The position numbers and the translations under genes are program-made. DNA of 64,000 bases, taken from positions 58,156,001 to 58,220,000 of the forward strand of contig OX597831.1 in the NCBI GenBank assembly GCA_951406725.2, given 5' to 3'. Under the pieces are notes generated by a model. It was not told the origin of the DNA. It saw only the letters and a list, made by a program, of their open reading frames with translations, and ran no database searches. This document shows positions 4,754 to 37,120 of the stretch, one piece after another; position 1 is the first letter of the stretch; every line of letters starts with the position of its first letter. The stretch comes from Octopus vulgaris. Its lineage: Eukaryota.

Positions 4754-5802
4754 TATAATTCTTTATCTCTCTGTAATAATTATTGTGGCATTTACCGTCA
4801 AATTAGCAGTTCTATACACGTGCTTCTATTTCGTTAATTTGCTTATATTTTGTTAATTTACACTGTATACGAGAATACAAACGTACTATATTCATATCAC
4901 GTGGTAAGTTATTATGCCTTATTTCTTGAAATAATTTATTGCTACATATTCTCATGTGACTTCATAGGCTCACTTTATTCTACAGCCACACCAGCAATCC
5001 AATGTCAACCCTTCGTCTTCTGCAACATTTGAACAGTTCACTTCCTCGTTGTCGTCTCCCATTGCAGCCCATTTCCAGAATATACCCATTTACGTACAAT
5101 ATCTCCATTACATCTCCATTCATTTGATTGTCAACCATACGATGGGTTGTGTTAGGCGCAGCGCTGACCACCCCAAAGGCGAGTATATCCGCTGACAGCT
5201 TTTCAGTGAGTTCAAAAAGTACACACTCCCTTCCAAATTTGGATGACAGGCTAGGACCTGGAATCCTCCAAACGGACGTATTACATGTCGCTTTGTCGAA
5301 CTAGACCATCATTTACTCTATAAATGTTTTGTCGTCGATGCTGCACTTTCCAATATCACCTCTTTCAACATAACTGTAATATATATATTGTTGGCATCCT
5401 TTTGTCTCGGGTGACAAAGGAGTTGCGCATAAACTAATCCAGTCTGGTTTTTACATTTCATGTCCACTCCAGTTTTTGCGCAGGCCTGGGCTAGATGTAG
5501 GAAAATCCTGGGTAGCCCAATTCTCAGGATTCCTCTCTCGACCTTGATGACGTAGTCCAAAGGAGTGCAGAGCATTACGTTTGGCACCAATTGGTTGCAG
5601 GGGCTGCCGGAAGAGTATCGAGTCGAACATTAAACCGCCTACGGGGCTCCACTCCGGATTCTTTAAAGGTTGTCTCCTTTCCGTAACCCTGGATAGGGAT
5701 CCATACCGGGAACTGTAAGCCAGAGCCAGCTGAACCCGGGACTCGTGTCAGGCAGGACAGTTACTCCATGAAGTAGTGAAGAAAATCGTTACCTACTACC
5801 TA

Positions 5803-5854
<52 letters not shown>

Positions 5855-5899
5855 TAGGTAGTAGGTAGCGATTTTCTTCACTACATATATATATATGTA

Positions 5900-6140
5900 A
5901 AAGTAATATGTGACAATTATTCTGTAGCCAAGATAAGACTCCGAGTTTCGGATGCCGAGGTGAATATTCATGCCGCCATCTCTTCAGTTATCCGGCCATC
6001 GGAAAAAACGCTATGAAAAATTAGGGTAATATTTCATAGCGTTTTTCCGATGGCCGGATAACTGAAGCATGAATTTCCACCTCGGCATCAGAAACTCGGA
6101 GTTTTATCTTGGCTATCGAATAATTGTCACATATTACTTT
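5900..6140. mobile_element. Inverted-repeat (Penelope pseudo-LTR-like) element carrying a hammerhead motif
   Basis: Arms 5900-6020 and 6028-6140 are reverse complements; the right arm has a short deletion in the ribozyme core. Confidence 0.75.
5932..5992 (-). ncRNA. Type I hammerhead ribozyme motif (C3-G8)
   Basis: GATAA CTGAAGA GATG...CATC C GAAA CTCGGAG TC TTATC: stems I, II and III plus a GUC triplet, with one extra C before GAAA. Confidence 0.72.
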
Positions 6141-6220
6141 CACAGATAATTTCCTCTATTTACATAATATCGTGGTCTCTTTCTTTCTTTTGTCATCTTA
6201 TCGTTTTTATCAATATCATC

Positions 6221-6742
6221 GAACATTTTCATCAAATATTTTCATCAGACATTTTCATCAGACATTTTCATCAGACATTTTCATCAAACATTTTCATCAG
6301 ACATTTTCATCAAACACGTTCATCAAACATTTTCAGCAGGCATTTTCATCAAACATTTTCATCAGACATTTTCATAAAACATTTTCATCAAACATTTTCA
6401 TTAGATATTTTCATCAAACATTTTCATCATTTTCACCAGACATTTTCATCAGACATTTTCATCATTTTCATCAGACAATTTTATCAAACATTTTCATCAA
6501 ATATTTTCATCAGACATTTTCATCAAACATTTTCATGAACCATTTTCAGCAAACATTTCTCAGACATTTTCATCAAACATTTTCCTCAAACATTTTCATA
6601 AGATATTTTCATCAGACATTTTCATCAAACATTTTCATCAAACATTTTCATCAGACATTTTCATCAAACATTTTCATCAAACATTTTCATTAAACATTTT
6701 CATGAAACATTTTCATGAAACATTTTCATGAAACATTTTCAT
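6221..6742. repeat. 13-bp minisatellite (CATCARACATTTT)n
   Basis: Direct tandem periodicity over about 520 bp. Confidence 0.95.
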
Positions 6743-6793
6743 TAGGTAGTAAATCTTAGAGGGAGTTATAAACAGTAGCTGAAACATCGTGAC

Positions 6794-6843
<50 letters not shown>

Positions 6844-6845
<2 letters not shown>

Positions 6846-6954
6846 CTAACAGAGATACCCAGCGTTGCTCGGAATTAAAATGGTATAGTTTATATATATA
6901 TATATATATATATACCATTTTAATTCCGAACAACGCTGGGTATCTCTGTTAGTA

Positions 6955-15212: not shown

Positions 15213-15325
15213 TTAAGAAACACACAAAAACCGTTAGATTCACTTCAACATTTAAATTTAATTTGTCAAAATATTTTCGTCGCTTTGAGACCGCGATCTG
15301 TTCACTGACAAAATTCTGTACGGAA
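15213..15325 (-). mobile_element. Short hammerhead-bearing element (family P), partial copy
   Basis: Near-identical to 16205-16320 and to 32506-32701. Confidence 0.8.
15262..15312 (-). ncRNA. Minimal hammerhead motif, G3-C8 core variant
   Basis: TTTGTCA GTGAACA GATCGC GGTCTCAAA GCGAC GAAA ATATTT TGACAAA; one stem II mismatch. Confidence 0.6.
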
Positions 15326-16112: not shown

Positions 16113-16131
16113 TACGGATTTGTACTTGCAT

Positions 16132-16320
16132 AGCAAGTAAACCTGACCTGAGATCGTGTGCTGGAACGAAAACAATTGCAGCGTTGAAGGTGTTTATAAG
16201 CCATTTAAGAAACACACAAAAACCGTTATATTCACTTCAACATTTAAATTTAATTTGTCAAAATATTTTCGTCGCTTTGAGACCGCGACCCGTTCACTGA
16301 CAAAATTCCGTACGGAATTT
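16132..16320 (-). mobile_element. Short hammerhead-bearing element (family P)
   Basis: Matches 32438-32701 and 15213-15325. Confidence 0.8.
16254..16304 (-). ncRNA. Minimal hammerhead motif, G3-C8 variant (A9 mutated to G in this copy)
   Basis: TTTGTCA GTGAACG GGTCGC GGTCTCAAA GCGAC GAAA ATATTT TGACAAA. Confidence 0.5.
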
Positions 16321-23329: not shown

Positions 23330-24265
23330 AAATTATCGCCGTTTACGGGAATATGCTTTTGAATTAGTAAAAAGGTTTGGAATTGGAATGAACAGCTTTA
23401 GATGTTCTGATAAATGGATTTTCAATTTTATGAAACGGAATAAACTGACTGTGAGAAAGATTACACATGTTGATCAAGCAGACAATAAAACACTCGGAGA
23501 AAAAACACAAATCGCCAGTGACTATTTAGATATCATTCCAGTATTAACAGCAGATAAGGATGCTGGCCAGATTTATAATATGAACGAAACACCTAAAACA
23601 ACGTTGGCATGTTTAGTTCAACAACCATAGACTTTTCTGGCAATAAAAATGTAGATGCTAGCCACTGTGGTGCTACCAAAGCCCGTTTTACTGCTGTGTT
23701 GTGTGTTAATGCTGCAGGAAAGGTGTTGAAAACAATGATTATCCTTAAAGGATTAAAACACGTGCCTAAAATCAAGATCCCAAAGAATATTTACATAACA
23801 GTCTCCAACAGGGGATCAATCACATATGAACTCATGCAGGTGTGGGCTGACAAAGTGTTTGGGAAGAGAACAGCACAACTATTCCATGCTCAAAATTCAG
23901 TACTATTCATGGATGAATGCTCAGTGCACAAGAAAACAGAGCTCCGAGAAGTGTTCAAACGTAGGAATACAATTCTCAAACTTATACCTCCTAAAACAAC
24001 ATCTTACTTGCAGCCATTAGATGTATCAATTATTGGTCTTTTCAAGAAAACTCTTCGTGCTGAATGGGAGAATTGGTTTTCAAACGGCAAAAAGGAGTAT
24101 ACAAATAAAGGGTGTCGTAAAAAACCTTCTTATCAAGAGATAGTGAACTTTGCGACCCAAGCTGTTACCACTTTGAATAAAGAAACTATAAAGCGTGCTT
24201 TTGAATGTTGTGGAATTGCTCCTCTTAGACAGACTGTAGAACATTGCCTCTTAGACTCAGGCTAA
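23330..24265 (+). pseudogene. pogo-family transposase pseudogene (frameshifted near 23600)
   Basis: ORFs 23388-23630 and 23609-24265. Confidence 0.85.
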
Positions 24266-31612: not shown

Positions 31613-32394
31613 GGTATCATTGGGGACAGTCTTGTTGGCCCAGTCAGGACCCTGAAAGGGTTAAACTGATCGCAGCCGCCTACTGTAATCTCTTGTAGGA
31701 GGTCTTGGATCCCAGGCTAGATGGCATACCGCTGTCACTTCTAAGGAATCTGGTATTCATGCATGACTACGCTCCCTCCTACTCTGTTAGGACCACCCAA
31801 ACATTACTAGGGTCTTACGGCATACAAGGTGAAAGGTTGATGGAGTGGTTGCCAGCATCTCTGAATCTCAACCCCATTGAAAATCTGTGGTCTATCCTTA
31901 AACAAGATATTTATGCCGATGGACGCCATTTTATGCCGAAAGATGCCTTATGGGCGACCATCAAAACTGTAGCAGAGGCAGTCCAACCTGCTGCTATTAA
32001 GAAATTGACAGATCCCATGACTAATAGGGTTTTTAAAGTTATTCGTCGAAAAGGTACACGTGTGGCTAAATAATTAATTATGTCAATAAATGTTATAATA
32101 TCATTATGGTTTTCAGTTAAGTATATACTCAATGTATGTTTAATATGTATCATCACCCTTCATTTTCCGAAAAAATGTCTAGATGGGCTATTTTCATTCA
32201 TAAGCAATTAGCATGGTTCATCCAAAAACTGAAGAATCTGAAATAAAAAAGAAAGAACGTTACACAGAATAATGAAAACATAACAATAGTGTTGCCATAG
32301 TGTGCAAACCAGCAGGGAAAAGTTTATCAAAATCGATTCCCAGAAAACCGAGAAATCCTAAATTTCACTCCTAAGCTATAAGCGTGGCTCTAGG

Positions 32395-32437
<43 letters not shown>

Positions 32438-32439
<2 letters not shown>

Positions 32440-32700
32440 CGAGTGACTTGATCTGAGATCGTGTGCTAGAACGAAAACAACAGCAGCGTGGAAGGTGTTT
32501 ATAAGCCATTTAAGAAACACACGAAAACCGTTAGATTCACTTCAACATTTAAATTTAATTTGTCAGCACGAAGTTTTGTCAGTGAACAGGTCACGGTCTC
32601 AAAGCGACGAAAATATTTTGACAAATTAAATTTAAATGTTGAAGTGAATCTAACGGTTTTTGTGTGTTTCTTAAATGGCTTATAAACACCTTCCACGCTG

Positions 32701-32703
<3 letters not shown>
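32438..32703. mobile_element. Family P element as an inverted repeat inside (TA)n
   Basis: Arms 32483-32565 and 32619-32701 are reverse complements; (TA)n lies on both sides. Confidence 0.85.
32575..32625 (+). ncRNA. Minimal hammerhead motif, G3-C8 core variant
   Basis: TTTGTCA GTGAACA GGTCAC GGTCTCAAA GCGAC GAAA ATATTT TGACAAA. Confidence 0.62.
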
Positions 32704-32769
<66 letters not shown>

Positions 32770-35834: not shown

Positions 35835-37120
35835 CGAGGGACGTTCAATAAGTAATGCCTCTGACCCACTTGCAGTTGGTTGATCCAGCTGAAATTTTGC
35901 ATGTGCAATTATTTATATCTCTACAGATTAGGTGATAAATTACAGCCCTGAACTAATTGTGGTTTCTGATTTACAGGTGTTTGAACTGAATTAAGTGTGA
36001 AATGGAGCCTGTTGAGTGTCGAACAGTGATCCGGTTTTTGTATTTGAAAGGACGCACACCACGAGAGACTTTTGATGAAATGAAAGTAACTTATGGTGAT
36101 GATGCCCCATCATATGACCTTGTAAAACGCTGGCATCGTGAATTCAAACATGGTCGGAACTCTGTGGAAACAGCTCCCAGATCTGGTCGCCCCCCCTTTT
36201 GCCATTGATGAGGTATCTGTCTGTCAAGTTGAGGCTGCCATTTTGGAAGATCGACGCATAACTATTCGCCAAATAGCCCATGAGGTCAAGATTAGTACCA
36301 GGTCTGTGGAAACTATCATTCATGACCATTTGCATATGCAAAAGGTGTCTGCCATATGGATTCCCAGGTTGCTCACACCTTTCCAGAAGCAAGAACGCGT
36401 TGAGTGCTCGAGGATGAATTTGGAGATGTGCCAAGAAGATGAGTCAACATTTTTCAAAAGTCTGATTACACAGGACGAAACCTGGGTCCATCACTATGAT
36501 CCAGAGACCAAAGCCGAGTCAATGCAGTGGAAGCACCGTGACTCACCGCCTCCAAAGAAGGCAAGGGTGCAACCCTCCGCTGGCAAGTCATGCTCACAGT
36601 CTTCTGGGACCAGGACGGAGTAGTGATGACAGATTTCCTGGCAAAGAGTACCATAATTACAGGAGCCTATTATGCTTCACTTTTGAAGAAATTAAGAGAA
36701 GCTATCAAAATCAAGAGGTGGGGCAAGATCAGCAAAGGCATCTTCCTCCTGCAGGACAACGTACCGGTCCACAACTCGCGTATCACCAGATCAGAAGCAC
36801 AGGCGTGCGGCTATGAACTCCCCCCCCCCCCCCATCTGACCTTGCACCCTCTGATTCTCACCTCTTCCCAGCCATGAAGTTGTTTTTGAAAGGAAAGCGT
36901 TTCCCAGATGATGCAGCCTTGATTTCTGAAGTCACGTCGTGGTTGGAGGACCAAGCTGGGGTCTTCTACAAAAACGGTCTCCAGAGCTGCATCAAACGAT
37001 GGGAGAAATGCGTAACTCTGGGTGGTTCCTATGTAGAAAAAGACTAATAACTGTGCCACGTTTCGTTGCTCTACTGCTATGGGAAGTGGATCAGGGGCAT
37101 TACTTATTGAACGCCCCTCG
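35835..37120 (+). mobile_element. Full-length mariner (irritans-like), 1286 bp
   Basis: TIRs CGAGGGACGTTCAATAAGTAATGCC / GGCATTACTTATTGAACGCCCCTCG with TA TSD. Confidence 0.95.
36002..37047 (+). pseudogene. Mariner transposase pseudogene
   Basis: WIPRLL, ITQDETW, LQDNVPVH and DLAPSDS motifs; frameshifts near 36195, 36585 and 36830. Confidence 0.93.

What the first reader, a model, noticed from the sequence alone, without database searches (positions are those of the whole stretch)
32575..32625. Natural G3-C8 swapped hammerhead core in a multicopy element (family P)
Seen: the three copies give the consensus UUUGUCA GUGAACA G GUCGC GGUCUCAAA GCGAC GAAA AUAUUU UGACAAA. This has a 7-bp stem I, a 5-bp stem II, palindromic stem III (AAUAUU) and a UUU triplet. 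G3 and C8 occur in all three copies, while the other deviations are private to single copies, so the swap belongs to the master element. Established: C3-G8 is a Watson-Crick tertiary pair in the active fold, and the double swap partly rescues activity in vitro. Inference: a natural, amplified example of that swap. Its novelty needs a literature check.
Basis: partly seen in the sequence, partly recalled or inferred. Interest (0 to 1): 0.85.

Follow-up and report, generated by a model that had tools for sequence, protein, structure and literature searches.

The report
Swapped-core hammerhead in Penelope-like retroelement
A jumping gene with thousands of copies in this animal genome carries a hammerhead-shaped RNA in which two normally fixed, paired core letters are swapped (G3-C8 instead of C3-G8); it likely still cuts itself slowly, but cutting is untested.

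Summary
Observation confirmed and extended. The 51-mer is the minimal type I hammerhead in the pseudo-LTR of an endonuclease-bearing Penelope-like element with a Nematis-type linker. A full unit spans 4.26 kb, and one copy has a 1025-aa open RT/GIY-YIG frame. Genome-wide, 5534 of 6024 exact 22-base matches are G3-C8; no C3-G8 copy was seen. The sister family (51% protein identity) has C3-G8 at the same place, and relatives in other animals have C3-G8 or U3-A8, so the swap is derived and compensatory. Cleavage is not shown. Most copies read through the cut site and end about 23 bases before G3 with an extra G, likely copied from a cap, so they come from uncut RNA. About 1% end at the cut site, which is inconclusive. 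Each of the three window copies carries one damaging private change, and two share a flank. The double swap partly rescues a Penelope hammerhead in vitro (PMC11167929). I found no natural G3-C8 in print (7 searches; Lünse 2017 unreadable), but this scan noted it before on other DNA (phages, protist elements; unchecked notes). New variant of a known kind.

The parts
32575..32625 (+). Minimal type I hammerhead motif, copy 1 (stem I 32575-32581/32619-32625; stem II 32590-32594/32604-32608 with one private mismatch at 32593; loop II 32595-32603)
32582..32589 (+). First core strand: G3 (32582), U4, G5, A6, A7, C8 (32587), A9, plus the extra G between 9 and 10.1 typical of PLE hammerheads
   Evidence: sequence; consensus in PMC4209133 Fig. 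S3
32609..32618 (+). G12-A13-A14-A15.1, palindrome AAUAUU (32612-32617; predicted dimer helix III) and U17 (32618); predicted cut between 32618 and 32619
   Evidence: sequence; numbering by analogy to known hammerheads (inferred)
32564..32704 (+). Direct arm of a short PLE insertion: pseudo-LTR fragment ending at the first of the family's two 3' ends, into (TA)n
32437..32565 (-). Inverted arm of the same insertion; runs from the tail region to within 0-2 nt of the predicted cut site (2-nt microhomology with the direct arm)
32675..32704 (+). Predicted start (ATG 32675-32677, +56 from the predicted cut) and first codons of the PLE RT/GIY-YIG ORF
   Evidence: homology of the same stretch in full-length L216 to the N-terminus of the sister ORF; inferred
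16254..16304 (-). Copy 2 of the motif (A9->G), in a pLTR fragment with tail, about 16130-16311
15262..15312 (-). Copy 3 of the motif (G10.1->A), about 15213-15319; shares an inverted flank with copy 2

Best explanation
The motif is the minimal hammerhead of a Penelope-like retrotransposon family whose master elements carry a G3-C8 pair in place of C3-G8, a swap likely kept by selection on the hammerhead fold and likely giving slow cleavage that needs a dimer or the element's protein. Shown: the carrier, the position of the motif before the ORF, the fixed swap, and C3-G8 or U3-A8 at the same place in relatives. Inferred: transcription starts about 23 nt before G3. The element's RT starts inside the first 25-85 nt of the ORF and copies the uncut, capped RNA to its 5' end, which gives the thousands of 140-200 bp copies. 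Inferred: cleavage after U17 happens only in a minority of molecules, probably when two motifs of a tandem transcript pair through AAUAUU, and trims long transcripts to unit length. Inferred: U17 rather than C17 suits G3, because C17 could pair with G3 and trap the inactive fold.
For: Carrier: long copies run into an RT + CX3CxxC linker + GIY-YIG ORF. L216 has two direct motifs 4.26 kb apart around the ORF, and L213 has a 1025-aa open frame followed by the motif. The family shows two 3' ends, inverted 5' arms and (TA)n targets, as described for PLEs (PMC8557442). Swap fixed: 5534 of 6024; 46 of 55. Derived and compensatory: the sister family has C3-G8 in ungapped register and groups with this family at 100% SH-aLRT (quick tree). 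Among 24 metagenome relatives scanned downstream of the ORF, 8 had a recognisable motif: 6 C3-G8 (one with a doubtful stem I) and 2 U3-A8, none G3-C8. All other core bases and G10.1-C11.1 are canonical in the master. Non-CpG subfamily-level changes hit 4 of 9 loop II positions but only 1 of 42 core or stem positions, and that one keeps a U.G pair. Stems I and II form with probability mostly above 0.9 in the transcript context. U17 in 55 of 55 copies. Published: the C3G/G8C double mutant partly restores cleavage of a PLE hammerhead, which needs the PLE protein (PMC11167929); a G3-C8 variant was less active with C17 than with G17 (PMC3884650, data not shown there).
Against: No cleavage was measured. 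Of 82 downstream-anchored copies, 35 end at -66..-54 and only 2 within 5 nt of the cut site, both apparently internal deletions, so most templates were uncut. Ends at the cut site are about 15 of 30 inspected of 139, roughly 1% of copies, and are not above positions +5..+7 in the held loci. The predicted AAUAUU duplex is only -0.2 kcal/mol, and the lowest-energy dimer fold is not the hammerhead dimer (-30.6 against -25.4). The sister family and relative L233 have C9 in place of the conserved A9, which suggests loosened catalytic constraint in this clade. The motif overlaps the likely downstream promoter, a second source of constraint. Outside loop II, non-structural positions change little more than the stems (6 of 78 against 1 of 42). 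The minority base G8 is in unexplained excess (42 of the first 100 non-C8 copies).
Confidence: 0.65

Rival explanations
1. The fold is kept but no longer cuts: it serves as a protein-binding or RT-handling structure, or its sequence is held by the overlapping internal promoter.
For: Most copies derive from uncut RNA. Hammerhead mutants did not affect insertion in vitro, and no RNA-seq reads ended at the site in the anole element (PMC11167929). C9 cores occur in the sister family and L233. The motif lies +17 to +67 from the inferred start site.
Against: A promoter or plain hairpin role does not predict a Watson-Crick-preserving double change at 3 and 8 with U4, G5, A6, A9, G12, A13, A14, A15.1-U16.1 and a non-G 17 all kept, while the flanks no longer align with the sister pLTR (no blastn hit between them).
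Confidence: 0.27
2. A dead relic: the core decayed in a master element, the 3-8 complementarity is chance, and the element amplified it passively.
For: PLEs such as Naiads proliferate without canonical hammerheads (PMC8557442). Core-deleted copies exist (L219, L221), and some copies spread as passengers of another repeat.
Against: The same core persists through several subfamilies whose loop II changed in sequence and length and whose ORFs differ by up to about 20-35% (broken copies L062, L222). It is present in young copies with long open frames. The core-deleted pair shares frameshifts, as duplicated dead copies would.
Confidence: 0.08

Closest known systems
Minimal type I hammerheads of metazoan Penelope-like elements (Cervera and de la Pena 2014, PMC4209133)
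   Same: Lies in the pLTR; type I topology; extra base between 9 and 10.1; G10.1-C11.1; short palindromic helix III; massive dispersal as truncated copies.
   Different: G3-C8. The 56 representatives of Fig. S3 have C3-G8, U3-A8 (2, S. mansoni) or U3-G8 (1), none G3-C8. Stem I is longer (7 bp) than the usual 3-5 bp.
PAc hammerhead of the Anolis Poseidon element and its engineered C3G/G8C mutant (Frangieh 2024, PMC11167929)
   Same: Motif near the ORF start; two internal RT start sites giving a tail; uncut RNA is the main template; the engineered double swap is the core found here.
   Different: Here the swap is natural and fixed. The ATG lies 56 nt after the cut site rather than inside the motif. 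The linker is Nematis-type. Copies also record a sharp 5' end with an extra G.
Natural U3-A8 hammerheads (Perreault 2011, PMC3088659)
   Same: Natural compensatory change of the 3-8 tertiary pair.
   Different: That is a double transition; this is a double transversion that reverses purine and pyrimidine. That survey dropped core-mutant hits from its final alignments.
Nematis-clade EN+ PLEs (Craig 2021, PMC8557442)
   Same: C-terminal GIY-YIG with a short CX3CxxC linker resembling the Nematis rows of Fig. S2; pLTRs, inverted 5' copies, tails, (TA)n targets.
   Different: Clade placement rests on the linker motif only; no tree with named reference elements was built. The tail is about 58 nt rather than 30-40.

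Membership tests
Hammerhead ribozyme (type I, minimal) | Stems I and II around a core, 5' and 3' ends in stem I | tested here: met
   Lowest-energy folds give both stems in intact copies L004 and L216; pair probabilities mostly 0.92-0.99 in context
Hammerhead ribozyme (type I, minimal) | Core U4 G5 A6 N7 A9, G12 A13 A14, A15.1-U16.1, H17 | tested here: met
   Majority letters in 55 unbiased copies
Hammerhead ribozyme (type I, minimal) | Literal C3 and G8 of the textbook consensus | tested here: not met
   G3-C8 in 5534 of 6024; filed therefore as a variant
Hammerhead ribozyme (type I, minimal) | Watson-Crick pair between positions 3 and 8 | tested here: met
   G-C here; C-G or U-A in relatives. 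Sequence complementarity only, no 3D test
Hammerhead ribozyme (type I, minimal) | Helix III, or a palindrome allowing it in a dimer | tested here: inconclusive
   AAUAUU palindrome present, but duplex -0.2 kcal/mol and hammerhead dimer not the lowest-energy fold
Hammerhead ribozyme (type I, minimal) | Self-cleavage after position 17 | not testable with these tools
   Only contigs were available; the genomic 5'-end test is inconclusive
Rfam hammerhead families | Match to an Rfam covariance model | tested here: not met
   No match at gathering score in the window; no hammerhead among 19 matches at E<=10 on 32540-32660. Whether canonical PLE minimal hammerheads match was not tested
EN+ Penelope-like elements | Single ORF with RT and C-terminal GIY-YIG | tested here: met
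   P0015: YVDD RT motif read from the sequence, PF01541 above cut-off; Pfam gave no RT hit
EN+ Penelope-like elements | Direct pseudo-LTRs, inverted 5' copies, optional tail | tested here: met
   L216 unit; two 3' ends, tail in 43 of 82
Nematis clade | Short CX2-5CxxC linker before GIY-YIG | tested here: met
   Compared by eye with Fig. S2 rows
Nematis clade | RT phylogeny with named reference elements | not tested
   The tree holds no named references
Non-LTR retrozyme | Non-coding tandem repeats of 150-400 nt with a hammerhead in each unit (size range recalled) | tested here: not met
   Copies are dispersed pLTR fragments of a coding element

The most novel reading that the evidence does not exclude
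An active natural G3-C8/U17 hammerhead, amplified to about ten thousand copies in an animal, tuned down so that the capped mRNA mostly survives to be copied while a minority is cut. The genome then holds a fossil record of both RNA states: copies ending at a cap-derived G and copies ending exactly at the cut site. That would be in vivo evidence for what hammerheads do in Penelope-like elements.
Probability: 0.3. Interest if true: 0.72.

Novelty: new variant of a known kind. Interest (0 to 1): 0.5.

Why it matters
It supplies a natural, lineage-fixed example of the reversed 3-8 pair that I found in print only as a laboratory mutant, with close relatives showing C-G and U-A at the same place. 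Standard descriptors require C3 or U3 and miss it, so hammerhead counts in animal genomes are underestimates. The family also bears on an open question, the role of hammerheads in Penelope-like elements: its copies show that the usual template is uncut and probably capped RNA, and it offers an autonomous element with long open frames for a direct test.

Tried and rejected
Rfam: no hammerhead match. Idea that the G3-G8 copies are a relic intermediate lineage: not supported, since they fall on at least five subfamily backgrounds and share no private changes. Idea that they are younger than other single mutants: not significant (25 against 21 copies, p=0.20). Idea that the common 5' end is a spliced exon junction: the letters before the extra G are random and no exon is shared, so a start site with a cap is preferred, although a branch-point-like motif and AG precede the site. 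Idea that the window copy's inverted arm marks cleavage: no peak at the site in unbiased copies. The one control position (+8; about 1 true end in 30 inspected of 154) is too few and is biased by AT microhomology. Idea in my notebook that the two arms of one insertion often come from different subfamilies: overstated; only 2 of 59 pairs clearly do. Sequencing runs: no RNA holder listed; four runs were laid as contigs (two guessed to be RNA), which cannot show ends, strand or expression. The flank upstream of copies 2 and 3 is an older unrelated repeat, not a second hammerhead. MAFFT did not align the motifs by structure, so no pair count was made on it. The careful tree did not finish; the quick tree is cited. 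Papers not held: Lünse 2017, Przybilski and Hammann 2007, and an id recalled for the Hammann 2012 review; one search fetched an unrelated paper by a wrong id.

Full report
Observation. The 51 bases at 32575-32625 (+) read as described. Two more copies lie at 16254-16304 and 15262-15312 on the minus strand, and none is expected by chance. G3 is at 32582, C8 at 32587, and the predicted cut falls between 32618 and 32619. Each window copy has one private change in a structural position: a stem II mismatch, A9->G, and G10.1->A. Copies 2 and 3 share an inverted 105-nt flank. Copy 1 sits in a head-to-head duplication that folds into a long hairpin. These three copies are therefore probably inactive, and the claim concerns the master element. 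Rfam has no match.

Genome-wide state. The genome has 2.8 Gb in 227 contigs. It looks like an octopus genome from its size and repeats; that label is recalled and untested. Exact 22-base patterns give 5534 copies with G3-C8, 324 with G3 and another base at 8 and 166 without G3. Among the first 100 listed of those 166, 10 have C3, all with C8, so no C3-G8 was seen; 66 were not listed. A downstream 24-base anchor has 5104 exact matches. I examined 82 anchors from the loci fetched for the first 100 listed; 55 span the core, with G3 in 52, C8 in 48, both in 46 and C3 in none. The total of about ten thousand copies is my estimate from these exact counts. Some copies were multiplied as passengers of another repeat (L043, L044, L048, L055-L057), so counts are not independent insertions. 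Loose-end strings in contigs of runs labelled organisms A, B and D show the same core.

Carrier. Following copies upstream led through about 1 kb of microsatellite-rich UTR into an ORF with RT motifs, a short CX3CxxC linker and GIY-YIG. L216 has two direct motifs 4.26 kb apart around the ORF; L213 has a 1025-aa open frame followed by the motif. The 14 database homologues are 41-49% identical and unnamed. Short copies have two 3' ends about 80 and 140 nt after the site, inverted 5' arms and (TA)n flanks. These are the hallmarks of endonuclease-bearing Penelope-like elements (PMC8557442, passages). The linker resembles the Nematis rows of its Fig. S2 (supplement part 54). The ATG is inferred at +56 by homology with the sister ORF, so both 3' ends lie inside the ORF start, as in the anole element (PMC11167929, parts 1-2 of 4).

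The swap is derived and compensatory. A protein search of the genome found a sister family with 1309-aa ORFs (51% identity). It has a hammerhead at the same place, in ungapped register, with C3-G8 but C9. Of 79 metagenome loci I scanned 48 with a strict descriptor and the downstream DNA of 24 with a loose one. Eight had a recognisable motif: C3-G8 in L236, L237, L238 (doubtful stem I), L249, L251 and L257; U3-A8 in L233 (with C9) and L239. Several of the rest had under 110 nt downstream. A quick tree joins this family to the sister family at 100% SH-aLRT, with C3-G8 and U3-A8 rows outside (29 rows, weak outgroup, no named references). Within the family, non-CpG columns that differ between subfamilies are 4 of 9 in loop II, 1 of 42 in core and stems (keeping a U.G pair) and 6 of 78 elsewhere (269 copies). 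The contrast is strong against loop II and weak against the flanks.

What the copies say about the RNA. Of the 82 anchors, 35 end at -66..-54 from the predicted site, 14 at -45..-38 and 2 within 5 nt, both apparently deletions. At the main end an extra purine before AGATG is G in 88 and A in 12 of the first 100 of 646 matches, where long copies have C or T. The letter before that G is T, C, A, G in 9, 9, 9 and 1 of 28, and in 5 of 28 the G could belong to an inverted arm. I read this as RT copying the cap at a start site about 23 nt before G3. That is an inference from recalled RT behaviour; a splice acceptor-like motif also ends there. So the usual template is uncut. A direct test at the site gave 139 matches with a non-U base before it, against 154 at a control position. 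On inspection about 15 of 30 are true ends at the site (the script said 19; I reclassed 3 as degenerate continuations and 1 as unclear), against about 1 of 30 at the control. Three of the 15 are explained by the stem I repeat itself. In held loci not chosen on upstream sequence, 1 of 86 true ends lies at the site (itself a selected copy) and 7 at +5..+7, one of which is a locus edge. The test is inconclusive.

Mechanism. Best supported (0.65): a weak, dimer- or protein-assisted ribozyme with a reversed 3-8 pair. PLE minimal hammerheads cut poorly and as dimers (PMC4209133, parts 1-2 of 4 and supplement parts 1-2 of 3; PMC6765202, passages and part of section 11). The engineered double swap partly rescues a PLE hammerhead that needs the PLE protein; G8C alone costs 10^5-fold (PMC8495972, one passage). 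U17 is invariant (55 of 55), which fits avoidance of a G3-C17 trap (PMC3884650, passages). Against it: the weak predicted dimer helix, C9 cores in relatives, mostly uncut templates, and overlap with the likely promoter. Rivals are a non-cutting structural or promoter role (0.27) and a dead relic (0.08).

Unexplained. Among copies lacking C8, G is 42 of the first 100 (U 41, A 17), while G3->C is 10 of 100. In held loci C8->G is 6 of 182 against 47 of 8413 at other non-CpG sites (p=0.0008), though one other site (+31) has 6 of 206. G8 is the ancestral base, yet these copies form no lineage.

Novelty. Natural U3-A8 is published (PMC3088659, passages and a search of 11 supplements with five G3-C8 strings, no hit). 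Seven full-text searches found no natural G3-C8; one search found only an engineered one. I also saw passages of PMC6155905 and part 1 of 5 of bioRxiv 2026.07.22.740005, neither of which mentioned it in what I read. Lünse 2017, with its large alignment of PLE hammerheads, and Przybilski and Hammann 2007 could not be read and may bear on the claim. Earlier notes of this scan report G3-C8 cores in phages and, with an extra base, in protist Penelope-like elements; they are unchecked, and none is on this genome or this sequence. Verdict: a real new variant of a known kind, interest 0.5.

Noticed in passing
L224, L226, L227 (e.g. L226:6515-6560); G000:C17, C1, C19: Very young sister PLE family with many near-identical 1310-1312-aa open frames; its hammerhead has C3-G8 but C9 in place of the conserved A9, and U17 or C17. 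Relative L233 has U3-A8 with C9.
   Followed up: partly
G000-wide; e.g. L317-L321: Short copies begin with an extra G before the common 5' end, with random flank before it: likely a cap copied by the PLE reverse transcriptase, marking an internal start site.
   Followed up: partly
G000-wide: Excess of C8->G copies on several subfamily backgrounds; hotspot, RT error or minor source loci not resolved.
   Followed up: partly
L043, L044, L048, L055, L056, L057: One palindromic PLE fragment with identical flanks recurs at many places, in L043 and L044 at both ends of a 2.8-kb unit; a nearby 247-aa ORF in L048 looks like a hAT-type transposase C-terminus (recalled; no Pfam hit).
   Followed up: no
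L144, L405: In 2 of 59 inverted insertions the two arms belong to different subfamilies, so at least some head-to-head insertions join cDNAs of two RNA molecules.
   Followed up: partly
L219, L221, L200, L208: Long copies sharing a 3-base deletion in the core (positions 8-9.1) and the same frameshifts; probably duplicates of a dead copy.
   Followed up: partly
L218:7273(-), L229:9809(+): Canonical C3-G8 minimal hammerheads of another repeat family occur in the same genome.
   Followed up: no
L451-L455, G000:C2:17908600-17912200: Five copies of the motif in a tandem array with about 660-1330 bp spacing, retrozyme-like in layout.
   Followed up: no
window 23597-24262, 31699-32070, 36126-36874: DNA-transposon fragments: DDE_1 above Pfam cut-off, DDE_3 and an HTH below cut-off. 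No PLE ORF lies in the window.
   Followed up: no
window 6132-6826: Array of a 13-bp unit in two blocks.
   Followed up: no
window 5770-5890 and 6853-6945: Short perfect inverted repeats around (TA)n tracts, similar in layout to PLE head-to-head insertions of other families.
   Followed up: no
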